Origin: a bacterium
GTDB taxonomy: Bacteria > JAAXHH01
Direction: 5' to 3'
Assembly (NCBI GenBank): GCA_963693015.1
Contig: OY843748.1
Span: forward strand, 1,024,395 to 1,088,394
Length of the DNA: 64,000 nucleotides
Every line of letters begins with the position of its first letter. Position 1 is the stretch's first letter. The notes below the pieces were generated by a model, which was given only the letters and a program-made list of their open reading frames with translations, did no database searches and was not told where the DNA came from. A program made the position numbers and the translations under genes. Below are positions 12,201 through 29,656 of this stretch, one piece after another.

Positions 12201-13973
<1,773 letters not shown>

Positions 13974-14033: not shown

Positions 14034-15053
14034 TTGAAGTTGTACGACCGTGACGCCGCGCAGGAACTGCGTCACCTCCTGGGCAGGTTCACCCGAGCGC
14101 CGGTGGCCCACCTGCCCACGCCGCTACAGGACTGTCCTCGCCTCGGGGAGGCCCTCGGGGGCCCCCGCATTCTCTTCAAACGCGATGACATGACCGGGCT
14201 GGCCATGGGCGGTAACAAGGCCCGCCAGTTCACCTACTCGCTGGGTCCCGCCCTCGACAGCGGCTGCGACTACCTGCTCCACGGGTCCGATTCCCAGTCC
14301 AACCAGTCCGCGCAGACCGCCGCCGCCGCCGCCCGGCTCGGCATGAAGTCCATCGTGGTCATCCCGCGGGACCACAGATCCTACCCCGTTTCCGGCAACC
14401 TGCTGCTCGATCACCTTCTGGCGGACCAGATCAAGTACGTCTTTCCCCTGACCGTGAAGGACGAGTTGAAAAAGCAGATCGAGGAACTGGAAGCGAAGGG
14501 GTCGAAACCCTACGACACGAGCAGCGACGGGGCGATACTTCGCGCGGTGGCCTACGTGGACGCCGCCCTGGAACTTTGCGGGCAATTGGCACAGCGTGAC
14601 ATCGCGCCGAGGGCCATCTACACGAGTTCCATGACCTATACGATCGTCGGCCTGGTGGTCGGCCTCCGCGCCGTCTCCGCCTGCTTCAGGGCCGTCGGGC
14701 TCAATTACTGGGTGGGGGACGACCGGGAGATGCAGGAACGTCTCGCGCCCGTGGCCAACGAATGCGCCTCGGTCATCGGGCTCAAGCACACTTTCACGCC
14801 GGACGATTTCGATGTCACCTGCGCCTTCGCCAAACCGGATTTCGGCGAACCGTCGCGCACCAGCCTCGAAACCATGCGCCTGGTGGCGCAGACCGAGGGC
14901 ATCGTACTCGACCCGGTATACACGGCCAAGGCCATGGACGGCCTGGCCATACACATCAGGGAAGGGCGTTTCCAGACGGACGACACCGTCTTATTCCTGC
15001 ACACGGGAGGAACGCCCGCCATATTCGCCTACGGAGACGAGCTCTTCGGTTGA
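14034..15053 (+). CDS. PLP-dependent fold-type II enzyme of the ACC deaminase / D-cysteine desulfhydrase family
   Basis: TTG start preceded by GGAG. LPTPLQ...LFKRDDMTGLAMGGNKARQF resembles the ACC deaminase/DcyD family. Confidence 0.75.
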   Translation: MKLYDRDAAQELRHLLGRFTRAPVAHLPTPLQDCPRLGEALGGPRILFKRDDMTGLAMGGNKARQFTYSLGPALDSGCDYLLHGSDSQSNQSAQTAAAAARLGMKSIVVIPRDHRSYPVSGNLLLDHLLADQIKYVFPLTVKDELKKQIEELEAKGSKPYDTSSDGAILRAVAYVDAALELCGQLAQRDIAPRAIYTSSMTYTIVGLVVGLRAVSACFRAVGLNYWVGDDREMQERLAPVANECASVIGLKHTFTPDDFDVTCAFAKPDFGEPSRTSLETMRLVAQTEGIVLDPVYTAKAMDGLAIHIREGRFQTDDTVLFLHTGGTPAIFAYGDELFG

Positions 15054-15120
15054 GCCGCTCCGGTTGGAATTCACCAACCCATCCAAGAGAGGTAACGCTA
15101 TTTTGTTTCGCAGATCATCC

Positions 15121-15156
15121 AAGACGGCCAAGACGGCCAAGACGGCCAAGACGGCC
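15121..15156 (+). repeat. Tandem 9-nt repeat (aagacggcc) x4 immediately upstream of the second formamidase
   Basis: Direct reading gives aagacggccaagacggccaagacggccaagacggcc. The repeat is intergenic if the CDS starts at GTG 15214, or encodes KTAKTAKTAK if the TTG at 15103 is used. Confidence 0.6.
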
Positions 15157-15213
15157 AGAGCGTCAAAGACAGGCGGACCAGGCGGGCCAGAAAACGCAGG
15201 GCTGACCAGACGG

Positions 15214-16821
15214 GTGCCCAGAGACCAGGTGCAAGAGGTATTCAGCCCGAACGTCTCCCCGGCCATTACCGTCAGCCGCGGCGAGACCATCGTCGTGGAG
15301 ACACAGGACTGTTACAGGGGTCTTCTTACGGCAGCGCGTGAAACAGGTCGTGACGGCGACCGGTCCGATCAGGCCGATCGGGCCGATCGGGCCGCCGGAA
15401 TACCGGTAACCGGCCCCATCTACGTGGAAGAGGCCCATATCGGCGACGTCCTTTCCATACAGGTCAAGCAGATCAGTACGGCGGACAAGGGCGTATTCGC
15501 CGTGTGCCCGGAAACGGGCGTCCCCGGGCAGGATATCCAGAAACCGGGGGCACGTGTCCTTGAAGTCAACGAAGACCACGTCCAGCTGGACGACCGGCTC
15601 AAACTGCCGTTGCGCCCGGTCATCGGTAATCTGGGCGTCGCCGCGAAGCACGGGGAAATCGATACCGTATATCCGGGCAGGCACGGCGGCAACATGGACA
15701 CCCTGGAAATTACGACCGGTTCCCGGGTCTACCTCCCCGTTCAGGTCAACGGCGCCCTGCTGTCCCTGGGCGATATCAAGGCCTGCGTGGGCGACGGCCA
15801 GATCGCCGGTTCGGGGGTCGAAGTCGAAGCGGAGGTCACCCTGCGGGTGGACACGCTGCCGGGCGGCCGGTTTTCCTGGCCCCGGGTCGAATCGAAGGGC
15901 GAATGGGTCACCATCACGTCCGCGTCCACGGTCGACCAGGCGGTGCGCCTGGCGATCACCGAGATGGTGAAATGGATTACGCAGGACAAGGGACTCGATT
16001 TCGATACGGCCTACGCACTGGTGAGCCTGGGAGGCAGTCTCCGTGTCAGCCAGTGGGGGAACCCGCTGATCACCGCGCGCATGGTTTTTCCCAAGCGGCT
16101 GATCAACAAGCTCAAATCGGTGCCTACCGCTTCCGGACGGCTCAACTACAGGACCCTGCCGCCCGCGGCCAACGGCGGCACGGGTGGCGAAACGGTGGCT
16201 GAAGAAGCGGGACAAACGGCTGGCCGTTCGTCCCGACGTAGCGGTTCGGGCCGTTCTCAGCGTTCGTCGAGCCGATCCCGGCAATCCGGCGGCCGGCGCG
16301 GCACGCGACAGAAGTCGAACGGCGCCTCTTCTTCCGCGAGCGCCGAAAGCAGCCAGCAGGAAGCAGCACCGCAGCCGGAAGCTGCGTCAAGACAGGAAGC
16401 AGCACCGAATCCGGACGAGGCAGCGCAGCCGGATGGGGCAGCACGGCCGGACGATACTGTACAGCAGGAAGCAGCTCCGCAGCAGGAAGCTGCGTCACGA
16501 CAGGAAGCAGCTCCGCAGCAGGACGCAACAACGGAAACCCAGGACGTCGAGGCCGGTCCGGCAGCCGGGAAGGGTAACGGCCACGGAGACGGGACAAGTA
16601 GAACCGGCAGGAGCAGAACGTCAGGCAGGAGAAGAGCTTCGGGCAGGAGAAAGGCTTCCACCGCTAAAAAGGACGCGTCGTCCGATCCGGCGGAGGCATC
16701 TCCCGGTGTGACGGAAACCACGAATGAAGATACGCAGGCCGAAAACGGCGCTCAACCGGAAGCCGCCGACCGCAAACCTACCTTTGGAAGAAGGCAGCGA
16801 CGTACGGTCCGCAGGGCATAA
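15214..16821 (+). CDS. Acetamidase/formamidase family paralog with a roughly 250 aa C-terminal low-complexity tail (RS-rich with QQEAAP-type repeats)
   Basis: The catalytic body (SRGETIVVETQD...GDIKACVGDGQIAGSGVE) aligns with the paralog at 9344. The track ORF from 14812 overlaps the previous gene. The GTG at 15214 reproduces the N-terminal length of the paralog; an alternative TTG at 15103 has an AAGAGAGG ribosome-binding site. The tail continues in frame to 16821 with no stop codon. Confidence 0.65.
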   Translation: MPRDQVQEVFSPNVSPAITVSRGETIVVETQDCYRGLLTAARETGRDGDRSDQADRADRAAGIPVTGPIYVEEAHIGDVLSIQVKQISTADKGVFAVCPETGVPGQDIQKPGARVLEVNEDHVQLDDRLKLPLRPVIGNLGVAAKHGEIDTVYPGRHGGNMDTLEITTGSRVYLPVQVNGALLSLGDIKACVGDGQIAGSGVEVEAEVTLRVDTLPGGRFSWPRVESKGEWVTITSASTVDQAVRLAITEMVKWITQDKGLDFDTAYALVSLGGSLRVSQWGNPLITARMVFPKRLINKLKSVPTASGRLNYRTLPPAANGGTGGETVAEEAGQTAGRSSRRSGSGRSQRSSSRSRQSGGRRGTRQKSNGASSSASAESSQQEAAPQPEAASRQEAAPNPDEAAQPDGAARPDDTVQQEAAPQQEAASRQEAAPQQDATTETQDVEAGPAAGKGNGHGDGTSRTGRSRTSGRRRASGRRKASTAKKDASSDPAEASPGVTETTNEDTQAENGAQPEAADRKPTFGRRQRRTVRRA

Positions 16822-16984: not shown

Positions 16985-17374
16985 TCAGCTTCGCTTCGAC
17001 TCCACGTCGATCCGGAACTCGGTCTCGAACGCCGTGGTAAAGTCGAACACCTCGTCGAAATCCTCGATGGCGTCCTCTTCGGTTTTCCGCAGCAATCCCT
17101 CGTTGACCAGGTTGAAGACGATATCGCCGAAGTGGCGGGTCTTCGTGACGTTCCACTCCTCGAAGACCAGTTTCGCCGCGATGCCGAACCGTTCGATGGC
17201 AAAGTCCCTGATGCCCAGGGAGAGTTCCTTCCCCGTGATGTGCCTGCGGACGGTCAGTTTCTCCACCGTGTACGAAACCGCCTCCATGACGAAGAGGTAG
17301 GCCCGCCGGGGATAGCGGCCGTCGCTTTCAAGGATGCGGTCCAGTACTTCCTGCGGATCCTGTTCTTCCGACAA
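16985..17374 (-). CDS. Hypothetical conserved protein (129 aa, acidic)
   Basis: Host-like GC and codon bias. It lies 63 nt downstream of the membrane-protein gene on the same strand. No motif recognised. Confidence 0.5.
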   Translation of the reverse strand: MSEEQDPQEVLDRILESDGRYPRRAYLFVMEAVSYTVEKLTVRRHITGKELSLGIRDFAIERFGIAAKLVFEEWNVTKTRHFGDIVFNLVNEGLLRKTEEDAIEDFDEVFDFTTAFETEFRIDVESKRS

Positions 17375-17437: not shown

Positions 17438-19432
17438 TCACCAGGTCTGCACGGGATGGCCGGCCTGCGGGAACCACATCCAGTCCGCCGCGTAGGACAG
17501 GAACACGCCCAGTACGAATGCGACGAGCATGCCCAGTACGGCGGGTATGGCCTTGCGGTACAGCTGGATGCCGCCCACCTTCAGCAGCAGGGCCTTCACG
17601 AACCAGACCACGAAGACGGAGAACACGGAACTGACCATCCCCGGCGTCATGACCACGGCGAACCCGATGGGATGGAGCGACCACCAGGTGAACCGGTGGT
17701 GGGCCTGGATCAGCAGCGCGGTCACCAGGCCGCCGATGGCCATGAACCAGAATTCCGTGCCCGTGATCGCCTGCTCGTTGTTGATCCATTTCACCAGGTT
17801 GTCATAGGGTAGCTTGCTCCCCGTGTTGAAGGCGGGTTCCAGGAAATTCGACGCCCCGCTGTGGGTGTATCCCAGGTATACGGTGTAGGCCACTGCTACG
17901 ACGATGCTCAGGGCCAGCACCGCGGTGATCGTCCGGAACGCCCCCTTCCCGGTCCCCCCCATTTCGTCGTCCACCTTGGCGATATGCCCCATGGAGCACA
18001 TCCCGAGCGTCCGCCAGTTTCGGGCGTAGGCGTTGCCGATGGCCAGGTTGGTCAGGTCCCGCGTGCCGATGCTCCCGGATCCGATGACGGCCACGGTGAA
18101 ATCGTGGGTCTCGAAGGGCAGGTCCAGGAACACGATCCCCGTCTCCGCCACGATGCGGGTCACGCCTACGAACATGAGCAGCAGCGATCCCATCATGAAG
18201 GCGATGATGCCCAGGGACATCCCGGAGGCGTACAGCCAGCAGACGATGTACGTGACGCCGCCCAGGACGCCCAGCGCGGCCATGCGGTAGGAGAAGAACT
18301 CCCGCGAATCGTCCACGTGAGGGGCCTTTCCGATCGCCTTCATGAACACGTCCTTCAAGTGACGCCGCGCGGCCCAGAGGGCGAACAGGGAAAAGACGAG
18401 AAATCCCCCGGAATGCTGGGACTTGACGACCGCGAAGGCCTGGGGCACGCCGAGGCGGATCATGACGCCCTGCTGGATGATCATGATGACGAAGAAGACC
18501 CAGATGCTGAAGAGGACATTGAGGTTCGTGAAGTAACCGACCCCCGCCACCAGGAAATTGAACCGGATGGGTATGGCGGGGAAAGACCGGGCCAGTACGA
18601 GGGGGAAATTGTGCAAGGGGCCGATGGGGATCGAACTGACCCAGTTGAAGAACCCCACGATGTTCCACAGAAAGATGAATAGCGTGATGCCGAAGCCGTA
18701 CCAGAACAGTTTCGACTGCATCACGGCGGGAAGTCGGCTCCGGCCCGTTCCTTCTTCGATCAGGATCAGCGGGATCTGCGCCAGCGGGAAGGTCAGCCTT
18801 TCGTGTTCCACCCACTGCTTTCGCAGCATGACCATGGCCGAGGCGCCGACCACGAAGATCGCGAGGAAGAAGGTGATCCACCAGAAGAGCGGGATCATCC
18901 AGGCGTTCCGGAGCAGCCCCAGAAACGAGGGCCGACTTTCCGGCACACCTTCGAAGAACCACGAAATGGCCCGTTCCTCGTCGGGCACGATGAGCCACGA
19001 GGGCAGGTACCGAAAGAACAATTCCGCCCACTGGTTCTCCGTCGTGGCGTAGTAATGAGGCGCGGTAATGGCCGAGATCCAGTAGGAGCTGAAAGGCCAG
19101 GCGGGGATGGTGGACGCCGTGAAGACCAGGAAGAAAACGACGATGAGTTCGTTCCGGTTCAGCACCCAGGCCGGCAGGAAGACCCTGAACAGAGGGTTGA
19201 AGACCAGCAGGACCAGCAGGAAGGGGAACAGTGCGGCCACGGGCAGGTGGGTCAGGCTGATATAGGACGACCCGGTAACGTACGCCGCGTGGAGCGTCCA
19301 GACGTTCAGCAGGACGGACATGACGACGCCGATCAAAAGCGCCTTTTTGGTCAGTCCCGACGTGAGGGTGCGCGCCGGGCCTCCGCTTTCTTCTTTACCC
19401 GTCTGCGGGGGCGTGGTGCTGGTATTGGACAT
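17438..19432 (-). CDS. Polytopic membrane protein (664 aa, at least 12 predicted TM segments), putative transporter; paralog of 23399..25381
   Basis: Many hydrophobic segments (LLIGVVMSVLLNVWTL, VAALFPFLLVLLVFNPLF and others). It shares conserved blocks with the 660 aa protein at 23399 (RYLPSWLIVPDEE vs DTLPAWLVISGKTD; LRKQWVEHERLTFPL vs LRKQWVSHERLRFPL). Family not recognised. Confidence 0.75.
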   Translation of the reverse strand: MSNTSTTPPQTGKEESGGPARTLTSGLTKKALLIGVVMSVLLNVWTLHAAYVTGSSYISLTHLPVAALFPFLLVLLVFNPLFRVFLPAWVLNRNELIVVFFLVFTASTIPAWPFSSYWISAITAPHYYATTENQWAELFFRYLPSWLIVPDEERAISWFFEGVPESRPSFLGLLRNAWMIPLFWWITFFLAIFVVGASAMVMLRKQWVEHERLTFPLAQIPLILIEEGTGRSRLPAVMQSKLFWYGFGITLFIFLWNIVGFFNWVSSIPIGPLHNFPLVLARSFPAIPIRFNFLVAGVGYFTNLNVLFSIWVFFVIMIIQQGVMIRLGVPQAFAVVKSQHSGGFLVFSLFALWAARRHLKDVFMKAIGKAPHVDDSREFFSYRMAALGVLGGVTYIVCWLYASGMSLGIIAFMMGSLLLMFVGVTRIVAETGIVFLDLPFETHDFTVAVIGSGSIGTRDLTNLAIGNAYARNWRTLGMCSMGHIAKVDDEMGGTGKGAFRTITAVLALSIVVAVAYTVYLGYTHSGASNFLEPAFNTGSKLPYDNLVKWINNEQAITGTEFWFMAIGGLVTALLIQAHHRFTWWSLHPIGFAVVMTPGMVSSVFSVFVVWFVKALLLKVGGIQLYRKAIPAVLGMLVAFVLGVFLSYAADWMWFPQAGHPVQTW

Positions 19433-19537
19433 GGTGATTACGGATTCTTGTGGGGCTCCGTCGCCGCCGTGGACGGGTCCGATGCGCCGCCCTGCAGCGG
19501 ATGGGTCCGATACCCGGCCACTCGAAGGGCAACGCGG

Positions 19538-20908
19538 TTAATCCCAGGTGTTCAGACCCTCCCGGCCTAACGCCGGAAGGAGGACGAAGTGGTCGTCCGT
19601 TTCCTTCATCCTGTCCAGCAGAAGGCCATGGTGCCGCACGATTTCGTCCCTGTAAGCCGGATCCTCCAGCAGGTTGCGCTGCTCCCAGGGATCGTTCTCC
19701 AGGTCGAAGAACAGCCAGGGGCCGCCGCCGTGGTTGTCCCCGCGAACGGTGTACTTGTAGCGGGCGGACCGGAATCCGCGCCAGACCCAGTCGTGGAAGG
19801 CCACTCCCTGGCGCTGTTCGGCAATGAACTCGAGCATAACACCCTCTCTTTCAAGCCGGCCGAGGTTTCCGTGGATCAGCGGGGCCAGGTTCTCGCCGGG
19901 AAGGGCGTCCCTCGGCTTCAGGCCGGCCAGGCCCAGTATGGTGGGAAAAAGGTCCTCGGTGGATACGGGATCGTCGATTACGGCGCCGGCGCGGTCCGGG
20001 TGCCTGGGATCCGCCACGACAAGGGGTATCCCCGTGGACTCCTCGTAGGGCCACTGCTTTCCCCGAAGACCGTGGGCGCCCCCGAGTTCCCCGTGGTCCG
20101 ACAAGAACAGGACGACGGTCTCCCCGTGCAGTCCGGTGCGCAGCAGGAAGGCGCCCAGGCGGCCCATGTTCCAGTCCAGGTTCTCCACCATGGCGTAGTA
20201 CCGCTTCCGGTCGAGCATGATCCGTTCCATCGCCTCGGCATCGGCGGCATCGACGTTAGGCGGCACGACGATGTCCATCGCCTCCCAGGTGCGCCGTGAC
20301 GCCTCCGGCGCCTCGAAGGGATCATGGGGCGGCTCGACGGAGATCACCATGCAGAAGGGGCGGGACGGGTCCCGGCGTTCGAGGTAGTCCATGGCCAGAT
20401 CGAAGAGCCCGTCGGTCTGGTATCCTTCGACCGGCCTCGGCGTCGGATCGTCGTCCTCGAAATAAAAAGTATCGAAGGGACCATTCCTGAGCTCGAAACC
20501 CATCCATTTCTGCCAGCGGCCCCGGTAGGCTTTCTTCACGGGTGTCCGTCCGCACTGGACGGCGGATCCCATGCGTCCGTGGCCACCGTCGAGATGCCAT
20601 TTCCCCGTGTAGATCGTCTCGTACCCCGCCTCGTTGAATTCATCGGCCAGGGTCCGTTCCGCCGGAGACATCCTGTACTCGATCGCGGGGACCTTCCGGT
20701 CGTGGGCGTACAGGCCCGTCATGAACGTAAAGCGGAAAGGGACGCAGATAGGACAGGTCGAACTGGCGTTCTCGAAGCGGACGCCCCGGCCGGCCAGGGC
20801 GTCGACGTGGGGGGTGACGATGTTCGGGTCGCCGTAGGCGGACAGGGCCTGCCGCCGCAGTTGATCACTCAGCACGATCAGCACATTGGGCGGTGGAGCG
20901 GCCTTCAT
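19538..20908 (-). CDS. Sulfatase (S1 arylsulfatase family) without signal peptide
   Basis: 456 aa. The N-terminus MKAAPPPNVLIVLSDQLRRQ leads directly into the sulfatase core. The formylglycine motif CVPFRFTFMTG (C-x-P-x-R...TG) is present. No hydrophobic leader. Confidence 0.85.
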   Translation of the reverse strand: MKAAPPPNVLIVLSDQLRRQALSAYGDPNIVTPHVDALAGRGVRFENASSTCPICVPFRFTFMTGLYAHDRKVPAIEYRMSPAERTLADEFNEAGYETIYTGKWHLDGGHGRMGSAVQCGRTPVKKAYRGRWQKWMGFELRNGPFDTFYFEDDDPTPRPVEGYQTDGLFDLAMDYLERRDPSRPFCMVISVEPPHDPFEAPEASRRTWEAMDIVVPPNVDAADAEAMERIMLDRKRYYAMVENLDWNMGRLGAFLLRTGLHGETVVLFLSDHGELGGAHGLRGKQWPYEESTGIPLVVADPRHPDRAGAVIDDPVSTEDLFPTILGLAGLKPRDALPGENLAPLIHGNLGRLEREGVMLEFIAEQRQGVAFHDWVWRGFRSARYKYTVRGDNHGGGPWLFFDLENDPWEQRNLLEDPAYRDEIVRHHGLLLDRMKETDDHFVLLPALGREGLNTWD

Positions 20909-21126
20909 TCAGTCTTCCTCTTCCTGTCGCCGGGTGACGAAAGCACCATGGAAACGACCCGGCCGTCGGCGGCCCGTCAGACGGGGTCAAATAGGTTGTG
21001 TATCGATTGCGGCGCGGCTATATTGCCGGTGGACTGAGCGCTATATTTCCCGGTCAAGAGATTAACGATAATCGAAGGACAAATCAACAGGATTTACCGG
21101 CGCACGACGGTACGATCTCTTATCTC

Positions 21127-21978
21127 ATGAGCAAACCCGACGACCTGGACGTCTATCTGTTCGACCTGCAGGGCTTCATCCGCCTGGAGCAGGCGCTGAC
21201 CAAAGCGGAAGTAGCGGAACTGAACGCCTGCCTGGACGAGATCCCGCCTCTTTCACCGGGCGATTGGCACGGCTACGTCCACGCCCATACCTACGGCACC
21301 GTGGACGGCCTGAACCTGCAGCAGATCTACGAGGCGGGCGCGCCTTTCGAAGCCCTGATAGACCATCCATCCTGGATCGACAGGCTCAAGCACTTCGTGG
21401 GCGGGGAGGGCACCTTCGACTATGCCCACGGCCCCCTGTTCATCGACGAGAACTTTGCCAATTTCCGGGAACCGGGCGAGGCGATCGGGCTGCATTCCGG
21501 GGGATTCCCGCCCATCATGCGCAACGGATTCCGCTATCACGGCGGCCGGTTCATGTGCGGTCAGATCAACGTGCTGATCGCCCTGACCGACATCGGACCC
21601 GGGGACGGCGCCACCATGGTCATCCCCGGCAGCCACAAGTCCAACTTCAGCCATCCGGACTTCGCCCGGCACGCCATGAAGCCGAAAGGCGCTTCCGTGG
21701 AGGGGATCACCGCTTCGATGGAACTGCTCATGGAAGCCGGGGACGCCCTGCTGTTCGTGGACGGCATCTCCCACGGATCGGCCATGCGGCGTAACGCGGG
21801 CACGCGGCGCATCGTGGTCTACCGGTACGGTCCCTCCTGGGGCAACTTCCGCCACGGGTACCGGCCGTCCCCCGAACTGCTGGAACGCCTGACGCCCGAA
21901 CGGCGCCGGATCGTCTGGCCGCAGCACGACTCGCCTGAAGGCGCCCCTTACCACCAGCCGGGTCAGGGCGGAAAGTGA
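21127..21978 (+). CDS. Phytanoyl-CoA dioxygenase (PhyH) family oxygenase
   Basis: Start MSKPDDLDVYLFDLQGFIRLEQ at 21127. HSGGFPP and GATMVIPGSHKSNFSHPD are PhyH-like. The track start at 20998 lies in AT-rich, promoter-like sequence and is rejected. The 3' end overlaps the convergent sulfatase gene by 16 nt. Confidence 0.75.
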   Translation: MSKPDDLDVYLFDLQGFIRLEQALTKAEVAELNACLDEIPPLSPGDWHGYVHAHTYGTVDGLNLQQIYEAGAPFEALIDHPSWIDRLKHFVGGEGTFDYAHGPLFIDENFANFREPGEAIGLHSGGFPPIMRNGFRYHGGRFMCGQINVLIALTDIGPGDGATMVIPGSHKSNFSHPDFARHAMKPKGASVEGITASMELLMEAGDALLFVDGISHGSAMRRNAGTRRIVVYRYGPSWGNFRHGYRPSPELLERLTPERRRIVWPQHDSPEGAPYHQPGQGGK

Positions 21979-23324
21979 AACCGCCAGCGCAGCCGCCTCC
22001 GCAGCGTCTGCACGACATCCGGCCGTTCGTTGGCCACGTTTTCCTGCTCGTCCGGATCGTCTTCCAGGTCGTATAGTTCCGTCTCGCCCGTGTGGTGCGC
22101 GACCAGCTTGTGTTTCGCCGTGCGTACCAGCCTGAACTCCCGCAGCGCACTCGCCGCTTCCTCGCGATGGGTCGACCGTTCACCGGTCAGCACGGCGCGG
22201 AAGTCCATCGCGTCAATACCCTCCTGGGCGGGCAGCCCCGCGAGGGCGCACAGGGTCGGATTGACGTCGATCAGTTCCACGAGGGCGTCGCAGGCCCGTC
22301 CCCCCGGTATGCCTGGTCCGGCGGCGATGAGCGGCACGCGCAGGGCCGCCTCGTAGGGCACGGACTTCGTATACAGGCCGTGGTCGCCCAGCATTTCGCC
22401 GTGGTCGCTGGCGAAGACGACGATGGTGTCCTCCGCCATGCCCCTGCGTTCCACGGCCTCGATGATCCGTCCCACCTGATCGTCGATCAGTTCGATGGCC
22501 GCGCAGTACTGCCGGCGGGTAACGGCGATTTCGTCGTCGGACAGGTCGCGCCGCCGGGCGTTGACCCATTCGGGCTTCCCATCGCCCGTTGCAGGCACGG
22601 CCGGCGGCATGGCCGCGTCCCGGTACCGGTCGGCGTATGCGGCAGGCGGATCGAAGGGGTCGTGGGGGCCCACGAAGCTCACGAAGAGATGCCACGGGTA
22701 GTCGTCGGGCACGGCGTCGATCCATTCCACGGCGCGGCGGCCGATGTAGACGTCCTCGAAGGCCTCGGCAGGCAGCACCGAGTCGTGGGACGCGCCTGCG
22801 ATCCAGCCCCGTGCCCCGCGGTCCGCGTAATCCGCCCGGAAGCGTTCGAAGAGTCCCTGCTCCTCCAGCCAGAATCCGTAGGGGCCTCTCGGTTCGTCGG
22901 CCATGCCCGCGTGCATCTTGCCCTCGCATTCCACGGGATGGGTGAATCCCCAGCCGAATACCCGCGGCCGGTCGCCGCGGCGTCCGTTGTAGGGGTCGGG
23001 CTTGGCCAGATCCAGCTTCCCCACGCACCCGACCCGGTAGCCCGCGTCCCGCAGGCGGACATAATAGGGCGTGATATGGCGGGGCAGGTAGCAGTTGTTG
23101 TCCAGGCAACCAAGCCGCGCTGGCTGGTACCCGCTGGCCAGGCCGATGCGGGCCGGGGCGCAGACCGGCGCGTTCGTGGTGCACTGCGTAAAGCGGATTC
23201 CGCGGTCCGCCAGCCGGTCCAGGTTCGGCGTGCGTACGAAGGACGCCCCCGCGGCCGACAGGTAGTCGTGGCGGTGCTGGTCGTCCATGATGAAGAGGAG
23301 GTTGGGGCGTGTGGTACTGGCCAT
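21963..23324 (-). CDS. Sulfatase (S1 family) without signal peptide
   Basis: 453 aa. MASTTRPNLLFIMDDQHRHD at the N-terminus. Formylglycine motif CAPARIGLASG. No leader peptide. Confidence 0.85.
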   Translation of the reverse strand: MASTTRPNLLFIMDDQHRHDYLSAAGASFVRTPNLDRLADRGIRFTQCTTNAPVCAPARIGLASGYQPARLGCLDNNCYLPRHITPYYVRLRDAGYRVGCVGKLDLAKPDPYNGRRGDRPRVFGWGFTHPVECEGKMHAGMADEPRGPYGFWLEEQGLFERFRADYADRGARGWIAGASHDSVLPAEAFEDVYIGRRAVEWIDAVPDDYPWHLFVSFVGPHDPFDPPAAYADRYRDAAMPPAVPATGDGKPEWVNARRRDLSDDEIAVTRRQYCAAIELIDDQVGRIIEAVERRGMAEDTIVVFASDHGEMLGDHGLYTKSVPYEAALRVPLIAAGPGIPGGRACDALVELIDVNPTLCALAGLPAQEGIDAMDFRAVLTGERSTHREEAASALREFRLVRTAKHKLVAHHTGETELYDLEDDPDEQENVANERPDVVQTLRRRLRWRFHFPP

Positions 23325-23398
23325 GATGGCGTCTCGCTTCTGTCCCGGTTGATCCCGATCGCCATTCAGACGCTATCGGAGGTTTTTGAGGTCATGCC

Positions 23399-25381
23399 TC
23401 AGTTAATAAACGATTCGAACCTGTGGGGCGTCGCCGGAAACCACAGGCTGTCCGCCAGGTACGACAGCGCCATCCCGAGGACGTACCCCACCAGGACGCC
23501 GAGGAAGAGGGGCTGCGCCTTGCGGTAGAGCGCTCCGCCGCCCAGCCGAAGCAGGACCACCTGGATGATCCAGGCCAGCAGAAAGGGCAGGAACATGAAC
23601 CGCACGGTGTCCGCGGCCACGGCGACCAGGCCGATGGGATGCAGCGGCCACCAGAGGAACAGGTACCGCGCGAGAATCATCAGCATGTACAGGGCGACCC
23701 CGTTGCCGAAGAAGACCAGTTCCAGGTCCGATACGCTGCTCGCGCTGCTGTTCCACGTCATGATCGTGTTGTAGAAGAAGGGCACCAAGTCCCCGGGCTT
23801 GGAAAGGAGATTGTCGGCACCCACGGCATAGCCCGCGCTGATATAGTAGTAGAGGGAGGCGACCACGCTGGCGGCGAAGGCCAGGCAGATCCACAGAAAC
23901 AGGTGCCGGGTGGCCGGCCGCATCCAGCGCCGAAGATACGCGGTATGGGACAGCCCGATCATCGTGAAAGTCCGCCAGTTCCGGGCGAAAGCGTTCGTCA
24001 TGCCCAGCGCGGTGATGGTGGACGGGTTCATGTTTTCGGGACCGATGATGCCCCCGGTGAAGATGTTGGGGTTGACCGGCAGGTCCATGGCGACGAGCCC
24101 CGCCTCGGCGACGATGCGGGCCATGCCGAGATAGACGGTGAAGAGGACGGCCAGGATGACCACGCTGACCGGCAGCGACATGCCGATGCTGTAGAGCCAC
24201 GCCAGCAGGTAGAGCATGCCGACGATAAACCCGAAGACCGCGACGCGGTAGGAGAAGAACTCCTCCCCGTCATCGACCGACGGATCCCGCCGGAACGCCC
24301 TTCGCGCCACCGCCGCGAGGTGACGGCGGGCCATCCAGAGGCCCCAGGCCACCAGGGCGATCAGGGCGCCGATGGACTGCGTCCCCACCAGCCCGGTGGG
24401 CGACATGGTCGTCGCCGCCGAGATGCCGACCATGTTCAGCACACCGCGCTGCAGCGTGGTGAACAACAGGAAGAAGCACAGGCTGAAGAGGATCTCGGCA
24501 TTGATGAAGAAGGCGAAGCAGAGTACGAAGACGTTCAGTCTGATGGGAAGATCGGGGATGGAAGGGTGGACTTTGATGTACGCAAGATCGGGTCCCATGA
24601 TGGGTATGGGCGTTACGATGTCCCAGTAGGAAACGATATTCCATAGCACGGCCGCGAGCGACAGGCCCAGGCCGATCCGGAAGGCGGTCGTGCGGACCAT
24701 GGGCGGCTCGTCCTCGTCCTTCCGCACCCCCATCAGGTTGAGCGCCACCTCGCCCAGGGGAAACCGCAGCCGCTCGTGGCTGACCCACTGCTTCCGCAGG
24801 ATGACCACGATGCAGGCGCCGGTCCACATCAGGGCGGCGAAACACGACATCCACCAGAGCAGGGGCGAGATCCAGGCCATCCACGGGATCTGGTAACCCG
24901 GCGCGGCGCCCTCGTAGAAAACCCGCACCGCGTCGGTCTTGCCGCTGATCACCAGCCAGGCGGGCAGGGTGTCGAAGAACGTTTCCGCCCAGCGGTTTTC
25001 GGGACTGGCGTGGTAGAAGGGACCGGTGATGATGGACACCAGGTACCGCGTCATGCCCCAGTCGGGCACCATGGAGCCGATCAGGCCCATGGCGAAAATG
25101 ACGACCAGTTCGGAGGTCGCCAGGGCGTACCTGGGCGCGAGCGTCTTGAGCAGGACGTGGGGTCCCAGGATCAGCAGGAGGAAGGGAATGAGCAGTGCCG
25201 AGGGGAGATGGGCGTAGGTTACGTAGTTGTAGCCCGCGTGGTCGGCGGAGAATTGTCCCCACACGGCCACAACGACGGAAAGGGCGAGACCGATGACTCC
25301 CGCGCGCAGGGTTACGGCCGAGGAACCACGGGATCGCGATGTCTCTGGAGGCATGGCTTTCGCCTGTTCCGGGTTAGACAC
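23399..25381 (-). CDS. Polytopic membrane protein (660 aa), paralog of 17438..19432; putative transporter
   Basis: Same architecture and conserved blocks as the 17438 gene. Its start lies 6 nt downstream of the PhyH gene stop (25388), suggesting a PhyH-transporter-sulfatase operon on the minus strand. Confidence 0.75.
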   Translation of the reverse strand: MSNPEQAKAMPPETSRSRGSSAVTLRAGVIGLALSVVVAVWGQFSADHAGYNYVTYAHLPSALLIPFLLLILGPHVLLKTLAPRYALATSELVVIFAMGLIGSMVPDWGMTRYLVSIITGPFYHASPENRWAETFFDTLPAWLVISGKTDAVRVFYEGAAPGYQIPWMAWISPLLWWMSCFAALMWTGACIVVILRKQWVSHERLRFPLGEVALNLMGVRKDEDEPPMVRTTAFRIGLGLSLAAVLWNIVSYWDIVTPIPIMGPDLAYIKVHPSIPDLPIRLNVFVLCFAFFINAEILFSLCFFLLFTTLQRGVLNMVGISAATTMSPTGLVGTQSIGALIALVAWGLWMARRHLAAVARRAFRRDPSVDDGEEFFSYRVAVFGFIVGMLYLLAWLYSIGMSLPVSVVILAVLFTVYLGMARIVAEAGLVAMDLPVNPNIFTGGIIGPENMNPSTITALGMTNAFARNWRTFTMIGLSHTAYLRRWMRPATRHLFLWICLAFAASVVASLYYYISAGYAVGADNLLSKPGDLVPFFYNTIMTWNSSASSVSDLELVFFGNGVALYMLMILARYLFLWWPLHPIGLVAVAADTVRFMFLPFLLAWIIQVVLLRLGGGALYRKAQPLFLGVLVGYVLGMALSYLADSLWFPATPHRFESFIN

Positions 25382-25387
25382 GGGCGG

Positions 25388-26215
25388 CTACTCGATCCAG
25401 GGATCCAGGCGGAACAGTTTGCGTCCAAGGGGGGTGAGTGCGGCCAGGGCCTCCGGACTCAAGGGCCGGTCGGGGCCGGGCGCCAGCCGGGCCTCTTGTT
25501 CGGACAGGGGCTGCAGGCGGGTAAACTGGGCGATCCTCGGCGAAGCGTTGTGATTGGCGCTGGCGGAGTGGGGCATCAGGTGATGCATGAGCACGTAGTC
25601 GCCTGCGTCGCCCGTGACCTCCATGGACGACGGAAAATCGACGATTTTCCCCCAGCCGTCGTTGCGGGTCAGGCCGTCCGGTTCGTTGAGCATGATCTCC
25701 CGCACCCGGTTCGGCGCGCCGGGCACCACGTGGATGCCGCCGCCGTTTTCCTCCACCCTGTTCAGGTAATAGCATCCGCCGATGCCGATTCCCGTGCGCA
25801 GGAAACCCTCATTCAATTCCTCGGGACCTTTCGGCACGGCGTCGAGGTGGAGGTTCTGGAGCCGCCCCTCCATGGCGCGGTTCCGGAGGGTGATCCCCGC
25901 CGAGCCGTCCCACACCTGGATGTATTCGGTCCCCAGGATGTCCACGGCGGCGCCGTACAGTCCCTCGTTTTGCAGCAGCGGCAGCATCGCGGGTTCGAAA
26001 AAGCTGCCGTTCCCATCGGGATGATGGGGCTTGAACCGGCCGTGGTTCGCGTGATAGTGGTCCGGGATGACCAGGTCCCGCGGGATCAGGTCCAGCAGGA
26101 ACGCGCGGGCCCGGTTGACGACTTGGTCCTCCAGCGTCCCCTTCAGGACGATGTAGCCATCGGACCAGAATCGCGCCAGTTGCTCGGCGGTGAGGTAGCG
26201 GGGGTGGGTGGGCAT
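25388..26215 (-). CDS. Phytanoyl-CoA dioxygenase (PhyH) family oxygenase
   Basis: 275 aa. MPTHPRYLTAEQLARFWSDGYIVLKG...HHLMPHSASANH, a PhyH-like N-terminus and His-rich C-terminal motif. Confidence 0.8.
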   Translation of the reverse strand: MPTHPRYLTAEQLARFWSDGYIVLKGTLEDQVVNRARAFLLDLIPRDLVIPDHYHANHGRFKPHHPDGNGSFFEPAMLPLLQNEGLYGAAVDILGTEYIQVWDGSAGITLRNRAMEGRLQNLHLDAVPKGPEELNEGFLRTGIGIGGCYYLNRVEENGGGIHVVPGAPNRVREIMLNEPDGLTRNDGWGKIVDFPSSMEVTGDAGDYVLMHHLMPHSASANHNASPRIAQFTRLQPLSEQEARLAPGPDRPLSPEALAALTPLGRKLFRLDPWIE

Positions 26216-26264: not shown

Positions 26265-26723
26265 TCACGGGCAGGTGTCCGGCCTTAACAGAGCTCTGTG
26301 GCTTCTGGTCTGATACACCCTCCCTCCGACAACTGATTTGAAGTCCGCATGCAGGTCAGTATCACCTGAAACCAACAGTTTAACTCCCGCTACACGAGCC
26401 AGCGCGATTATATCTGGGTCATCAGACTGCAACACTGGCAACGTGTTTTTGACCGTTTCAACGTCTTGCGCCGGATATTGCCTAAGACTATTGCTTTCGC
26501 GGTATCGGTCGAACTGCTGTCTCATCTTTTCGTGTCTGTCTAACTCCTGCTTCAGTTTCTCTGTTGGCGAATAAACCATTTTCCCCTTGCTTCTCATCCA
26601 CCTTCTAACCGGTTCCATATCTATGTTGTCGGGATTTACGTAGTCACTAAACTTATTGGCATCCAATATCAGACACATGTCTCCACTTTCATTTGGATAA
26701 GCCGAGCAGCTTATCCGATTCAT
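26265..26723 (-). CDS. Small PIN-like (DUF4411-like) protein, second gene of the low-GC ATPase module
   Basis: An internal start MCLILDANKF at 26678 sits 10 nt after the ATPase stop, behind AAGTGGAGA. LILDAN...DDPDIIALARVAGVKLLVSGDTDL shows a PIN-like pattern of conserved acidic residues. GC is clearly below that of flanking genes. Confidence 0.5.
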   Translation of the reverse strand: MNRISCSAYPNESGDMCLILDANKFSDYVNPDNIDMEPVRRWMRSKGKMVYSPTEKLKQELDRHEKMRQQFDRYRESNSLRQYPAQDVETVKNTLPVLQSDDPDIIALARVAGVKLLVSGDTDLHADFKSVVGGRVYQTRSHRALLRPDTCP

Positions 26724-28062
26724 CGATGAAGAAATCTCTGTAGCCTCGCGGAACGCCCAGCAGATTCGCCTGTTCGTCGAATCGAATGTTATGGACTTTT
26801 ACGTGGTTTCCAACAGGTTCCAGGTATATGAGTGATACATCCTCCGGTGCGATTCCTCCATTCATAATCTCAATTCGAGCTCTGTTTATCATAGCGTCGC
26901 TATGTGTCTCAATTACATACTTATGTTTCTCTCGTTTGATGGTTTCAATCAGCAACGAAGACAGCTCAGCCTGACCTTTGGGATGCAAATGGACCTCTGG
27001 TTGTTGCATCAGGAAGATCGCTCTTCGCCGCCCGTCTAGAATACGAACCAAGATGGGAAGTATCTGGTTTACACCGTATCCTACGTCAATCAGGTTCGCC
27101 TTGGGACCCTTGACCTTTACTTGCAACTGGAACGGATCCCCCGACGACCTTCCTAGCCTCCTTACATAAATATCAGTAAACAAGCCGGAAAACCTGCCAA
27201 ATTCGATCAGTCGATCTCGTAGTTTCTCCCAACTTTTCTTATCAGTCCTCGATATATTCATGAGAACCATAGGAATATCACTTCCTTCGGGACTGACGTC
27301 CTCCCTTAAAGGATTATAGGTACGTTGTGGACTAGACCGGATCGGTGCAAAACTATACATCTCAGGCTGACCGAATCCCGCGTTCTCGTAAAGGTGGTCC
27401 CATTCTTGGTCAAAGTGTTTCATCGTGTTTTTTTTGAATTCTTTAAATGCTTTCACCTCTTTGGGAATCGACTTCTTAGAGGCACCGAAAACTATGAGCG
27501 TATCATCGATAGTCGATCTCGGAAACATTTCCAACAGTGTTGAGTCGAACCATGACGCTTCTGACACTCTTAGTTTGAATTTCCCGGATTCCGCGCCTTC
27601 GATGTAATCAACTATTTCAACACCATGGAACAACTCCGGCTGTTTTTGTCGGACGATTTTCTGATCATTCCAGACAAAAAGGGCTTCGCCATAATCTGAT
27701 ACGATCTTCTGCTCCCTTAGAACGGGCTCGGAACCTCTCTCTTTCGCAGCCAATGTCAATGAATACTCGATTGATTCACTGTCTGCATCGGCTTGTAACT
27801 CACAGCCAATCAGAAAACGATCCAGCTTGGGATTTGATCTCCTTACAATTTCGGAAAACGCACCCATCTGGTAAGGGTTTACGTTGAAATCCAATCCAGA
27901 GCGCCTTCCGCAGATGAAATCATGTGCCGTATGCAAACAGCCCAGCGCAGTGGTCTTGCCCGTGCTGTTCTCACCCACCAGGAACGTAAGCGGCCGGATT
28001 TCAAATACTTGCCTGCCGGCGAAACATCGAACGTCTTCCAGGATAAGTTTGCGTACGTCCAT
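26689..28062 (-). CDS. AAA_21/AAA_15-type ABC-like ATPase (OLD/AbiL-type N-terminal ATPase fold) with a C-terminal extension
   Basis: 457 aa. Walker A FLVGENSTGKTTALG near the N-terminus. Distal Walker B and H-loop block IFLMQQPEVHLHP...VIETHSD. Low GC. Confidence 0.75.
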   Translation of the reverse strand: MDVRKLILEDVRCFAGRQVFEIRPLTFLVGENSTGKTTALGCLHTAHDFICGRRSGLDFNVNPYQMGAFSEIVRRSNPKLDRFLIGCELQADADSESIEYSLTLAAKERGSEPVLREQKIVSDYGEALFVWNDQKIVRQKQPELFHGVEIVDYIEGAESGKFKLRVSEASWFDSTLLEMFPRSTIDDTLIVFGASKKSIPKEVKAFKEFKKNTMKHFDQEWDHLYENAGFGQPEMYSFAPIRSSPQRTYNPLREDVSPEGSDIPMVLMNISRTDKKSWEKLRDRLIEFGRFSGLFTDIYVRRLGRSSGDPFQLQVKVKGPKANLIDVGYGVNQILPILVRILDGRRRAIFLMQQPEVHLHPKGQAELSSLLIETIKREKHKYVIETHSDAMINRARIEIMNGGIAPEDVSLIYLEPVGNHVKVHNIRFDEQANLLGVPRGYRDFFIDESDKLLGLSK

Positions 28063-28115: not shown

Positions 28116-28865
28116 TCACACCGCCCAGTACTTCCAGAGGTCCTCTGGAATCTCGTATCGGAAGGACTGCTCCAGGTGTCGTTCGTGGTTCCAGCGGGCG
28201 AAGAGGGCGAAGCGCGGCGAATGGCTGGTGTTTTCGGATCCATTGTGGGTCAGGTAGGAATGCCAGAGCACCACGTCGCCGGCCTTGGCAGCGAATTCCC
28301 TGCCGCCGGTGGTCGGGTTGTCGCAGAACACGTCCCAAGAGAAGCCCTCAATCTCAAGGAAACTGCCGTCCACATGGGACGGATGCTCAAGAAAATACCG
28401 GTGGGCGGCGTGGTGGCTTCCGGGCCAGTAGATCAAGGCGCCGCCGCCGGGTTCCACGTCGTACAGGTAGGCCGTCGCGCCGATCATGAAGGGCAGCCAG
28501 CGTCCCCCGTAGGCGTCGATATGGCCTGTTTTCGGCATTTCCCACGACTTCCCGGGCTCGGGCCAGCGTATGATGGGAATGCCGTCACCCGCGACAAATG
28601 TGCCGCCGCTGAGCTGGTCGATGATCGCCATCATCCGCGGATGGTGCACGAGCGCCGATTCCGGTGGGTCGTATTCGTACCCGTCGAGGCCGCTCGTCTC
28701 CCTCGGCCAGGTCGCGGGGTCCTCCAGGGTGCCGTCAAGCGCCCGCCAGATCTGACGCCGCCATCCCTTGAGGGTTTCTTCGTCGAACACGTCCTTCAAA
28801 ACCAGGTAGCCGTTCAGCTTGAAGTGGGCGATCTGCTGGGCGTTCAGGGGCTGTGAAGCGGACAT
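28116..28865 (-). CDS. Phytanoyl-CoA dioxygenase (PhyH) family oxygenase
   Basis: 249 aa. QQIAHFKLNGYLVLKDVF...HHAAHRYF...LWHSYLTHNGSEN. Confidence 0.8.
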   Translation of the reverse strand: MSASQPLNAQQIAHFKLNGYLVLKDVFDEETLKGWRRQIWRALDGTLEDPATWPRETSGLDGYEYDPPESALVHHPRMMAIIDQLSGGTFVAGDGIPIIRWPEPGKSWEMPKTGHIDAYGGRWLPFMIGATAYLYDVEPGGGALIYWPGSHHAAHRYFLEHPSHVDGSFLEIEGFSWDVFCDNPTTGGREFAAKAGDVVLWHSYLTHNGSENTSHSPRFALFARWNHERHLEQSFRYEIPEDLWKYWAV

Positions 28866-29643: not shown

Positions 29644-29656
29644 GGAGGCGCTTAAG

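What the first reader, a model, noticed from the sequence alone, without database searches (positions are those of the whole stretch)
17438..26215. Two paralogous modules of a leaderless sulfatase, a 660 aa unclassified membrane protein and a PhyH oxygenase
One module runs from 20908 down to 17438 on the minus strand (sulfatase then membrane protein) with the divergent PhyH gene at 21127-21978. The other is the minus-strand operon PhyH (26215-25388), membrane protein (25381-23399), sulfatase (23324-21963). Both pair a formylglycine-motif sulfatase that lacks any signal peptide (implying a cytoplasmic substrate) with a roughly 660 aa polytopic membrane protein that I cannot place in a transporter family. 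The two membrane proteins share conserved blocks but are diverged. This suggests import of a sulfated compound followed by cytoplasmic desulfation and oxygenase attack.
Basis: partly seen in the sequence, partly recalled or inferred. Interest (0 to 1): 0.55.

Follow-up and report, generated by a model that had tools for sequence, protein, structure and literature searches.

The report
OPT-like importers beside leaderless sulfatases
Two neighbouring gene clusters in an uncultured marine or sponge-associated bacterium each pair a signal-less sulfatase with a 660-residue membrane protein from an unstudied family (Pfam DUF6785/DUF6784) whose predicted fold matches the plant iron-chelate/oligopeptide (OPT) transporters, which suggests the cell imports sulfated compounds and removes the sulfate inside.

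Summary
The six genes are real and lie at the stated coordinates. Both sulfatases carry C-x-P-x-R at residues 55-59 and start directly at the catalytic domain, so no signal peptide can fit.

The two membrane proteins are 36% identical. They are not unclassifiable: both match Pfam DUF6785 + DUF6784 over their full length. AlphaFold models of both (pLDDT 84 and 88) match only barley Yellow Stripe 1, an OPT-superfamily proton symporter (Foldseek E about 1e-8, TM 0.6-0.7). Sequence support is marginal: hhalign P = 4e-4, and no Pfam OPT hit.

"Two paralogous modules" is overstated. The sulfatases share 28% identity, the PhyH proteins barely align, and the gene orders differ.

The family is large (6,756 clusters at 50% identity) and multi-copy per genome. 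It sits next to many kinds of cytoplasmic catabolic enzymes; only 4 of 16 subfamilies have a sulfatase nearby. Relatives of either transporter at 53-63% identity have no sulfatase neighbour.

PhyH A is a HygX-like variant (H-x-G...D-x3-H), conserved across phyla in unrelated contexts, and probably not part of the module.

Import followed by cytoplasmic desulfation is plausible but inferred.

The parts
16985..17374 (-). 129-aa conserved ORF, 63 bp downstream of memA; possibly the last gene of operon A; function unknown
   Evidence: Good coding signature (GC3 0.83). No Pfam hit. Present in the same position in orthologous loci L004-L010 and L053 and in L001. A relative lies two genes downstream of the DUF6785 gene in Planctomycetota MAG L055.
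17438..19432 (-). memA: 664-aa DUF6785 + DUF6784 membrane protein with a predicted OPT/YSL-fold; proposed secondary transporter
   Evidence: Pfam PF20581 E 7.6e-108 and PF20580 E 3.6e-18. AF2 model pLDDT 83.6, pTM 0.83. Foldseek against PDB finds only 7wsr_A/7wst_A (HvYS1), E 1e-8, TM 0.59-0.66. hhalign against a YSL profile gives P = 4e-4 over 189 colinear columns.
19538..20908 (-). sulfA: 456-aa formylglycine-type (S1) sulfatase with no signal peptide
   Evidence: PF00884 E 5e-47 starting at residue 7, plus SGSH_C. C55-V-P-F-R59. In-frame stop directly upstream of the ATG. Closest solved structures are arylsulfatase 7snj, exo-L-galactose-6-sulfatase 7lha and YidJ 2qzu (E about 1e-42). Below all NCBIfam equivalog cut-offs.
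21127..21978 (+). PhyH A: 283-aa Fe(II)/2OG oxygenase with a HygX-like relocated carboxylate (H123-S-G125 ... D212-x3-H216). Transcribed divergently from sulfA; its 3' end overlaps sulfB by 16 bp. Probably not part of the module.
   Evidence: PF05721 E 9e-18. Motif from alignments A3 and A6. Closest solved structure is HygX 4xc9, E 1e-11. The HygX motif is described in PMC13374393. Relatives 67-78% identical occur across phyla in unrelated contexts.
21963..23324 (-). sulfB: 453-aa formylglycine-type sulfatase with no signal peptide; choline-sulfatase-like
   Evidence: PF00884 E 1.4e-39 starting at residue 7. C55-A-P-A-R59. Best solved relatives are choline sulfatases 6fny, 7pth and 6g5z (E about 1e-47). 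TIGR03417 scores 237.7 bits against a cut-off of 433.
23399..25381 (-). memB: 660-aa DUF6785 + DUF6784 membrane protein with a predicted OPT/YSL-fold; proposed secondary transporter
   Evidence: PF20581 E 1.1e-105 and PF20580 E 5.7e-18. 36% identical to memA. AF2 model pLDDT 87.6, pTM 0.89. Foldseek finds only HvYS1, E 1.5e-8, TM 0.64-0.72.
25388..26215 (-). PhyH B: 275-aa Fe(II)/2OG dioxygenase with the canonical H-x-D...H motif; first gene of operon B, ending 6 bp before memB
   Evidence: PF05721 E 3.5e-5, 24.6 bits against a cut-off of 22. H-L-D and the distal His align with the other paralogs. Conserved in the syntenic locus L001.

Best explanation
The region holds two separate catabolic operons: PhyH B-memB-sulfB, and sulfA-memA-(orf129). 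They belong to an uncultured Latescibacterota/PAUC34f-like bacterium.

Shown:
- memA and memB belong to the uncharacterised Pfam family DUF6785 + DUF6784.
- Their predicted fold is that of the OPT/Yellow-Stripe transporters. Those are proton-coupled symporters proposed to work by an elevator mechanism, and they carry mid-sized anionic or peptide-like solutes.
- Both sulfatases are cytoplasmic by sequence.

Inferred:
- Each transporter imports a small to mid-sized sulfated organic solute, such as a sulfated sugar or oligosaccharide fragment, or a choline-sulfate-like ester for module B.
- The co-transcribed formylglycine sulfatase removes the sulfate in the cytoplasm.
- In operon B the PhyH dioxygenase oxidises the substrate or product.
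- PhyH A is most likely an independent, widely conserved enzyme that happens to lie between the two operons.
- The family as a whole is a general, multi-paralog uptake system whose members are recruited into many different catabolic clusters. The sulfatase pairing is one lineage-specific use of it.
For: - Family and fold. HvYS1 is the only significant hit for two separately predicted models built from the same 45-sequence set (the paralogs are 36% identical). Its fold had no structural homologs when it was solved (PMC9691689).
- Weak colinear profile match at P = 4e-4. It pairs invariant E95 with the YSL 'TRQEN' Glu, and 'LRKQWVEHERLxFPL' with 'LRK..DYKLtYPSG'.
- Cytoplasmic sulfatases. Secreted PDB homologs align from residues 24-45 of their chains; cytoplasmic choline sulfatases align from residues 5-8, as these two do.
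- 40 of about 42 sulfatases within 6 genes of a DUF6785 gene in related genomes are also leaderless.
- Same strand and short gaps of 6, 74 and 105 bp.
- Synteny is conserved in nine related loci (L001, L004-L007, L009, L010, L053).
- Independent subfamilies also sit in sulfatase-containing clusters: L037-L057 have sulfatase-SDR-SDR-DUF6785, L044 has sulfatase-DUF6785, and L065/L066/L070 also qualify.
- Neighbours of the family are overwhelmingly cytoplasmic catabolic enzymes: TIM-barrel isomerases, SDRs, luciferase-like monooxygenases, PhyH, MR_MLE, GGT.
- The family is large (6,756 clusters at 50% identity) and multi-copy (at least 9 copies in the 3.97-Mb genome OZ241838.1).
Against: - No transport or enzyme assay exists for any family member.
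- The Pfam OPT model does not hit any of 45 members even at E <= 10. The hhalign probability is only 34%.
- The sulfatase pairing is lost in relatives at 53-63% identity.
- With orthologs collapsed, sulfatase density within 3 genes is about 7.5%, against 2.7% at 4-6 genes. The numbers are small and the genomes are sulfatase-rich, with 5% of called genes in these loci being sulfatases.
- No FGE or anSME maturase is present in the window.
- The substrate cannot be named. Both sulfatases fall below all equivalog cut-offs.
Confidence: 0.5

Rival explanations
1. The adjacency has no shared substrate. The DUF6785 proteins are transporters for other solutes, and the sulfatases lie next to them only because these genomes are packed with sulfatase and PhyH genes.
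For: - Sulfatases make up about 5% and PhyH about 4% of all called genes in the 80 loci. The window alone has 7 PhyH genes.
- Only 4 of 16 DUF6785 subfamilies have a sulfatase within 3 genes.
- Relatives at 53-63% identity lack sulfatase neighbours.
- PhyH A's subfamily is clearly independent of the module.
Against: - Co-directional genes with gaps of 6-105 bp in two separate operons.
- The same pairing has arisen with unrelated sulfatase and DUF6785 subfamilies (L037-type, L044, L065-type).
- A cytoplasmic sulfatase logically needs an importer for a charged substrate.
Confidence: 0.25
2. The 'sulfatases' are really formylglycine-dependent phosphonate- or phosphate-monoester hydrolases (PMH/PehA-like members of the alkaline-phosphatase superfamily). 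The transporters would then import organophosphorus esters rather than sulfate esters.
For: - NCBIfam PehA model hits at E 3e-44 and 2e-49.
- PDB hits include phosphonate monoester hydrolases 2vqr, 2w8s and 4upk (E 1e-21 to 1e-30).
- That clade is also cytoplasmic and uses formylglycine (established knowledge).
Against: - Better scores to arylsulfatase and choline-sulfatase models and structures.
- PehA scores are far below the cut-off (151-169 bits against 900).
- No phosphonate or phosphate metabolism genes nearby.
Confidence: 0.1
3. The DUF6785 proteins are not importers. They could be exporters or have a non-transport membrane role, and the resemblance to HvYS1 would then be fold convergence or a modelling artefact.
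For: - The evidence is fold-level only, plus a marginal profile signal.
- AlphaFold models are not experimental structures.
- The HvYS1 proton-site Asp residues could not be mapped onto the family.
Against: - Two separately predicted, confident models give the same single significant hit with full-length alignment of 664-690 columns.
- No hit to GT-C, Wzy, flippase or other non-transporter folds.
- The neighbours are catabolic, not biosynthetic or export-related.
- Characterised OPT members are importers (PMC9691689; abstracts listed).
Confidence: 0.1

Closest known systems
OPT / Yellow-Stripe-like transporters (Pfam PF03169, TC 2.A.67); structural reference HvYS1 (PDB 7wsr/7wst)
   Same: - Similar size, about 660 against 678 residues.
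- Predicted whole-chain fold match (TM 0.59-0.72, Foldseek E about 1e-8) for both window proteins.
- Colinear weak profile similarity in the N-terminal third, including an invariant Glu and an 'R-K-x...-L-x-[FY]-P' block.
- Multi-paralog families.
   Different: - No Pfam OPT hit at E <= 10.
- 11-16% identity in the structural alignment.
- The HvYS1 Cys250-Cys671 disulfide, the C-terminal dimerising strand and the proton-site Asp446/490/494 were not shown to be conserved.
- Known OPT substrates are peptides, glutathione, metal-nicotianamine, folates and muropeptides, not sulfate esters.
- Distribution here is Latescibacterota, Gemmatimonadota, Zixibacteria and similar uncultured bacteria.
Choline-O-sulfate utilisation (BetC choline sulfatase plus a dedicated importer) and cytoplasmic arylsulfatase AtsA systems
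   Same: - Logic of importing a sulfate ester and hydrolysing it in the cytoplasm with a leaderless formylglycine sulfatase.
- sulfB's closest solved relatives are choline sulfatases (E 1e-47).
   Different: - sulfB scores 238 bits against the 433-bit equivalog cut-off.
- No betA, betB or betI genes nearby.
- In those systems the importer is, from general knowledge, an ABC or BCCT transporter, not a DUF6785 protein.
Bacteroidota polysaccharide-utilisation loci with periplasmic sulfatases
   Same: Clustering of sulfatases with uptake components and carbohydrate-active or oxidative enzymes. The window also has MR_MLE, UxuA-like, HpcH aldolase and cupin genes nearby.
   Different: - No SusC/SusD genes.
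- The sulfatases are cytoplasmic rather than periplasmic.
- The proposed uptake step is an inner-membrane OPT-like secondary carrier.
HygX (orthoester-forming Fe/2OG oxygenase of hygromycin B biosynthesis)
   Same: PhyH A's closest solved relative (E 1e-11). Both have the unusual H-x-G motif with the acidic ligand moved to four residues before the distal His.
   Different: - Asp instead of Glu at the relocated position.
- HygX Lys137 corresponds to Asn148 here.
- PhyH A is not in an aminoglycoside gene cluster and is conserved at about 70% identity across phyla.

Membership tests
Pfam DUF6785 + DUF6784 | Full-length match to PF20581 followed by a C-terminal PF20580 match above the gathering scores | tested here: met
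   memA scores 361.6 and 66 bits; memB scores 354.5 and 65.4 bits; cut-offs are 25 and 26.4. All 45 aligned relatives have both domains.
OPT superfamily (PF03169 / TC 2.A.67) | Sequence match to the Pfam OPT model | tested here: not met
   None of the 45 family members hit PF03169 even at E <= 10.
OPT superfamily (PF03169 / TC 2.A.67) | YS-core plus scaffold fold as in HvYS1 | tested here: met
OPT superfamily (PF03169 / TC 2.A.67) | Profile-profile homology to bona fide OPT/YSL proteins | tested here: inconclusive
   hhalign A1 against 26 plant YSLs: P = E = 4.2e-4, probability 34%, 189 colinear columns in the N-terminal third only. Against the single HvYS1 sequence, E = 0.23. The YSL profile was narrow (Neff 2.1).
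OPT superfamily (PF03169 / TC 2.A.67) | Proton-coupled substrate uptake; conserved core acidic residues (HvYS1 Asp446/490/494) | not testable with these tools
The family has invariant R426, E430, D437 and D650, but their equivalence to the HvYS1 residues was not established.
S1 formylglycine sulfatases | PF00884 domain with the C/S-x-P-x-R motif near the N-terminus | tested here: met
   C55-V-P-F-R59 in sulfA and C55-A-P-A-R59 in sulfB, read directly.
S1 formylglycine sulfatases | A maturase (FGE or anSME) encoded in the genome | not testable with these tools
   None of the genes scanned against Pfam in the window is an FGE or anSME. The rest of the genome was not available.
Choline sulfatase BetC (TIGR03417 equivalog) | Score above the NCBIfam equivalog cut-off | tested here: not met
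   sulfB 237.7 bits and sulfA 178.2 bits, against a cut-off of 433.45.
PhyH-type Fe(II)/2OG dioxygenases | PF05721 match and the H-x-D/E...H facial triad | tested here: met
   PhyH B: 24.6 bits against a cut-off of 22, with H-L-D and the distal His. PhyH A matches PF05721 (65.7 bits) but has H-S-G with D212 four residues before H216, as in HygX.
Fe/2OG halogenases | H-x-G/A motif with no compensating carboxylate ligand | tested here: inconclusive
   PhyH A has an invariant H-S-G. It also has an invariant Asp at the position of HygX's relocated Glu, which argues for an oxygenase. Metal coordination was not modelled.

The most novel reading that the evidence does not exclude
DUF6785/DUF6784 is a large, previously unrecognised prokaryotic branch of the OPT/Yellow-Stripe elevator-transporter fold. 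It would serve as the main multi-paralog organic-solute uptake system of Latescibacterota/PAUC34f, Gemmatimonadota and Zixibacteria. In sulfatase-rich marine and sponge-associated lineages, dedicated paralogs would import sulfated compounds for cytoplasmic desulfation. That would be a route to sulfated organic matter different from the periplasmic PUL model of Bacteroidota.
Probability: 0.3. Interest if true: 0.65.

Novelty: new variant of a known kind. Interest (0 to 1): 0.45.

Why it matters
- Sulfated polysaccharides and esters are a major marine and host-derived carbon and sulfur pool. Many uncultured sulfatase-rich bacteria encode sulfatases without export signals, and how the charged substrates reach them is unclear.
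- Assigning a 6,700-cluster family of unknown function to a transporter fold, and finding members co-operonic with cytoplasmic sulfatases, gives a concrete and testable candidate for that missing uptake step.
- It also extends the OPT fold, known mainly from plant and fungal peptide and metal-chelate carriers, into abundant environmental bacteria.
- As it stands this is an annotation advance backed by structure prediction, not a demonstrated mechanism.

Tried and rejected
- Literature search for DUF6785, DUF6784, PF20581 and PF20580: no papers.
- A1 profile against PDB sequences: no hit at E <= 10.
- Pfam at E <= 10 on 45 members: no OPT or any other transporter family.
- NCBIfam: nothing for the membrane proteins.
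- Bacterial OPT seed in the fetched loci: none found. The OPT profile therefore had to be built from plant YSLs only. HvYS1's true sequence was recovered from PDB alignments.
- hhalign alternative alignments: no further significant segments.
- Rfam and tRNA scans of the window: nothing.
- Promoter and terminator scans: no more sites than in shuffled sequence.
- Family-wide sulfatase enrichment at the adjacent position: rejected after collapsing orthologs. A refined census gives only a modest, small-number excess within 3 genes.
- Halogenase reading of PhyH A's H-x-G: considered unlikely, because a HygX-like relocated Asp is invariant.
- Recent duplication of a whole module: rejected.
Full report
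**1. Observation**

The ORF listing reproduces all six ORFs at the coordinates given. Their codon-position GC pattern (GC3 0.80-0.88, GC2 about 0.44) is that of real genes in this 63% GC genome. The overlapping shadow ORFs lack this pattern.

Pfam assigns:
- 19538-20908(-) and 21963-23324(-) to Sulfatase PF00884 + SGSH_C
- 21127-21978(+) and 25388-26215(-) to PhyH PF05721
- 17438-19432(-) and 23399-25381(-) to DUF6785 (PF20581, full-length, E about 1e-106 to 1e-108) plus a C-terminal DUF6784 (PF20580, E about 1e-18)

The membrane proteins are therefore not unplaceable. They belong to a named family with no described function. No paper in the library mentions that family, and NCBIfam has no model for it.

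**2. Leaderless sulfatases**

- Both proteins begin MKAAPPPNVLIVLSDQ... and MASTTRPNLLFIMDDQ...
- The Pfam sulfatase model aligns from its first position at residue 7.
- The ORFs are already the longest possible. A TGA lies immediately upstream of the sulfA ATG.
- Both carry C-x-P-x-R at residues 55-59.
- Secreted sulfatases in the PDB align from residues 24-45 of their chains. Cytoplasmic choline sulfatases align from residues 5-8, as these two do.
- sulfB is closest to choline sulfatases (E about 1e-47). sulfA is closest to assorted carbohydrate sulfatases and arylsulfatases (E about 1e-42). Both are far below every NCBIfam equivalog cut-off, so no substrate can be assigned.
- No FGE or anSME maturase is among the window's annotated genes.

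**3. Are these paralogous modules?**

- memA and memB are 36% identical end to end.
- The sulfatases are only 28% identical.
- The two PhyH proteins give one local alignment at E = 3e-4.
- Gene order differs. Operon B is PhyH-mem-sulf. Operon A is sulf-mem-orf129, with PhyH A transcribed divergently.

These are two independently assembled clusters drawing on the same three superfamilies, not a duplicated unit.

**4. What the membrane proteins are**

- An alignment of 45 diverse relatives (A1) gave an AlphaFold2 model of memA with pLDDT 83.6 and pTM 0.83.
- Foldseek against the PDB returned only two significant hits, both barley Yellow Stripe 1. 7wsr_A had E 1.1e-8 and 7wst_A had E 7e-8, with probability 1.0, TM 0.59-0.66 and about 688 aligned columns. 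The next hit had E 0.025 and TM 0.14.
- A separate model of memB (pLDDT 87.6, pTM 0.89) gave the same answer: E 1.5e-8 and 4e-8, TM 0.64-0.72.
- HvYS1 is a proton-coupled, elevator-type symporter of the OPT superfamily. Its YS-core/scaffold fold had no structural homologs when it was solved (PMC9691689). The match is therefore specific.

Sequence support is weak:
- No family member hits Pfam OPT even at E <= 10.
- The family profile against HvYS1 alone is not significant.
- Against a profile of 26 plant YSLs, hhalign gives P = E = 4.2e-4 (probability 34%) over 189 colinear columns of the N-terminal third. It pairs the invariant E95 with the YSL 'TRQEN' Glu, and 'LRKQWVEHERLxFPL' with 'LRK..DYKLtYPSG'.

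I conclude that the proteins very probably work like OPT-type secondary transporters. Membership of the OPT family in the sequence sense is not established.

**5. Family-level context**

An exhaustive profile search finds 6,756 clusters at 50% identity with E <= 1e-3, and 2,234 with E <= 1e-30. Named sources are Latescibacteria, Zixibacteria, Gemmatimonadota and a few others. Genomes hold many copies: at least 9 in the 3.97-Mb OZ241838.1. These are often tandem or convergent pairs.

Pfam on the 109 immediate non-DUF neighbours in 70 loci gives:
- xylose-isomerase-like TIM barrels: 12
- sulfatases: 11, of which 7 are orthologs of sulfA
- SDRs: 10
- luciferase-like monooxygenases: 10
- GGT: 7
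- FAD enzymes, epimerases, MR_MLE and others: fewer

One common operon is TIM-barrel - DUF6785 - luciferase-like monooxygenase - PhyH - DMFA2-like.

Further observations:
- Collapsing 94 family genes into 16 subfamilies, 4 have a sulfatase and 4 a PhyH within 3 genes. Sulfatase density is about 7.5% at offsets 1-3 and 2.7% at offsets 4-6.
- The exact window arrangement is conserved only in close relatives: L001, L004-L007, L009, L010 and L053, with memA at 81% identity or more.
- memA relatives at 58-63% identity sit beside PhyH + MR_MLE, an SDR, or unknown genes.
- memB relatives at 53-54% identity have no sulfatase or PhyH neighbour.
- Other subfamilies have independently acquired sulfatase partners: sulfatase-SDR-SDR-DUF6785 in L037-L057, sulfatase-DUF6785 in L044, and L065/L066/L070.
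- About 40 of 42 sulfatases near family genes are leaderless.

The picture is a general importer family recruited into diverse cytoplasmic catabolic clusters, with sulfatase clusters as one recurrent use.

**6. The PhyH genes**

PhyH B has the canonical H-x-D...H triad and ends 6 bp before memB. It is plausibly part of operon B.

PhyH A is different. Six other PhyH paralogs in the window have H-x-D. PhyH A has H123-S-G125, and uniquely has an Asp four residues before the distal His (D212...H216). Its closest solved relative is HygX (E 1e-11). HygX has exactly this relocated-carboxylate arrangement, H-X-G...E-X3-H (PMC13374393).

The motif is invariant in 19 relatives that are 67-74% identical to PhyH A, from Latescibacteria, Gemmatimonadota, Zixibacteria, Handelsmanbacteria and Chloroflexota. 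Their neighbours have nothing in common: AraC, UbiA, esterases, RraA/GFO-IDH/heparinase. PhyH A is therefore most likely a stand-alone, strongly conserved enzyme of unknown function, not a component of module A.

**7. Mechanism and confidence**

The best-supported model (confidence about 0.5) has these steps:
- An OPT-like proton symporter imports a sulfated organic solute (inferred).
- A cytoplasmic formylglycine sulfatase removes the sulfate. The cytoplasmic location is shown by sequence; the activity is inferred.
- In operon B a 2OG dioxygenase acts on the substrate or product (inferred).

Rivals:
- adjacency without a shared substrate in a sulfatase- and PhyH-dense genome (0.25)
- the hydrolases being PMH/PehA-type phosphonate or phosphate esterases (0.1)
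- the membrane proteins not being importers (0.1)

**8. Novelty**

The components belong to known superfamilies, and the DUF family is already catalogued. I found no paper assigning it to the OPT/YSL fold or linking it to cytoplasmic sulfatases. I rate this a new variant of a known kind. It is of moderate interest as a testable candidate for the missing uptake step that feeds cytoplasmic sulfatases in uncultured marine and sponge-associated bacteria.

**Limitations**

- The fold evidence rests on predicted models and one search program.
- The OPT profile was plant-only.
- Gene calls in related loci used a GC3 heuristic.
- The census covers the 80 best of more than 580 loci.

Noticed in passing
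window 21127-21978 (+): PhyH A has an invariant H-S-G...D-x3-H iron motif (HygX-like relocated carboxylate). It belongs to a subfamily that is 67-78% identical across at least five phyla (3,069 hits) with no consistent gene neighbours. This is an unusually conserved Fe/2OG enzyme of unknown function.
   Followed up: partly
window 26265-28062 (-): A low-GC (0.49) two-gene insert lies next to operon B. It holds a 457-aa AAA ATPase hitting the PADLOC models NsnB and PDC-M55A (E about 1e-36 to 1e-38) and AriA (E about 2e-18), plus a 152-aa partner with no hit. The syntenic relative L001 has DUF4325 + PIN in the same slot, so this is a variable defence or toxin-antitoxin slot.
   Followed up: partly
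window 44122-60144: A lower-GC (0.52-0.60) defence island. It holds a Schlafen/AlbA_2-HATPase_c_4 protein, a 1,359-aa HTH protein with no defence-model hit, PDC-S06 (E 1e-191), a type IIG restriction-methyltransferase (E 3e-160) and a PDC-S35/TIR protein (E 1e-82).
   Followed up: partly
window 8319-9299(-), 21127-21978(+), 25388-26215(-), 28116-28865(-), 29594-30460(+), 31521-32324(+), 34916-35770(-): Seven PhyH-family dioxygenase genes lie within 27 kb. They are interspersed with cupins, MR_MLE, amidohydrolases, FmdA amidases, GGT and NIPSNAP, forming a dense oxidative and amidolytic catabolic region.
   Followed up: partly
window 16985-17374 (-): A 129-aa acidic ORF with no Pfam hit sits immediately downstream of memA. 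It is conserved in all orthologous loci, and a relative lies two genes downstream of the DUF6785 gene in Planctomycetota MAG L055.
   Followed up: no
loci L037-L057, L050, L051, L058, L062, L063, L078, L081: DUF6785 genes often occur as tandem or convergent pairs of diverged paralogs. Since HvYS1 is a homodimer, these pairs might form heterodimers.
   Followed up: no
window 12201-13973 (+) and 7 of 109 neighbours in related loci: Gamma-glutamyltranspeptidase genes recur next to DUF6785 genes. Some OPT transporters carry glutathione, so a gamma-glutamyl or peptide substrate is possible for some subfamilies.
   Followed up: no
window 14812-16821 (+): The FmdA/AmdA amidase ORF is 669 aa here, against 503 aa in the syntenic relative L001. 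It carries a long low-complexity Ser/Arg/Gln/Glu/Ala-rich C-terminal tail. Neither the start site nor the tail was examined.
   Followed up: no
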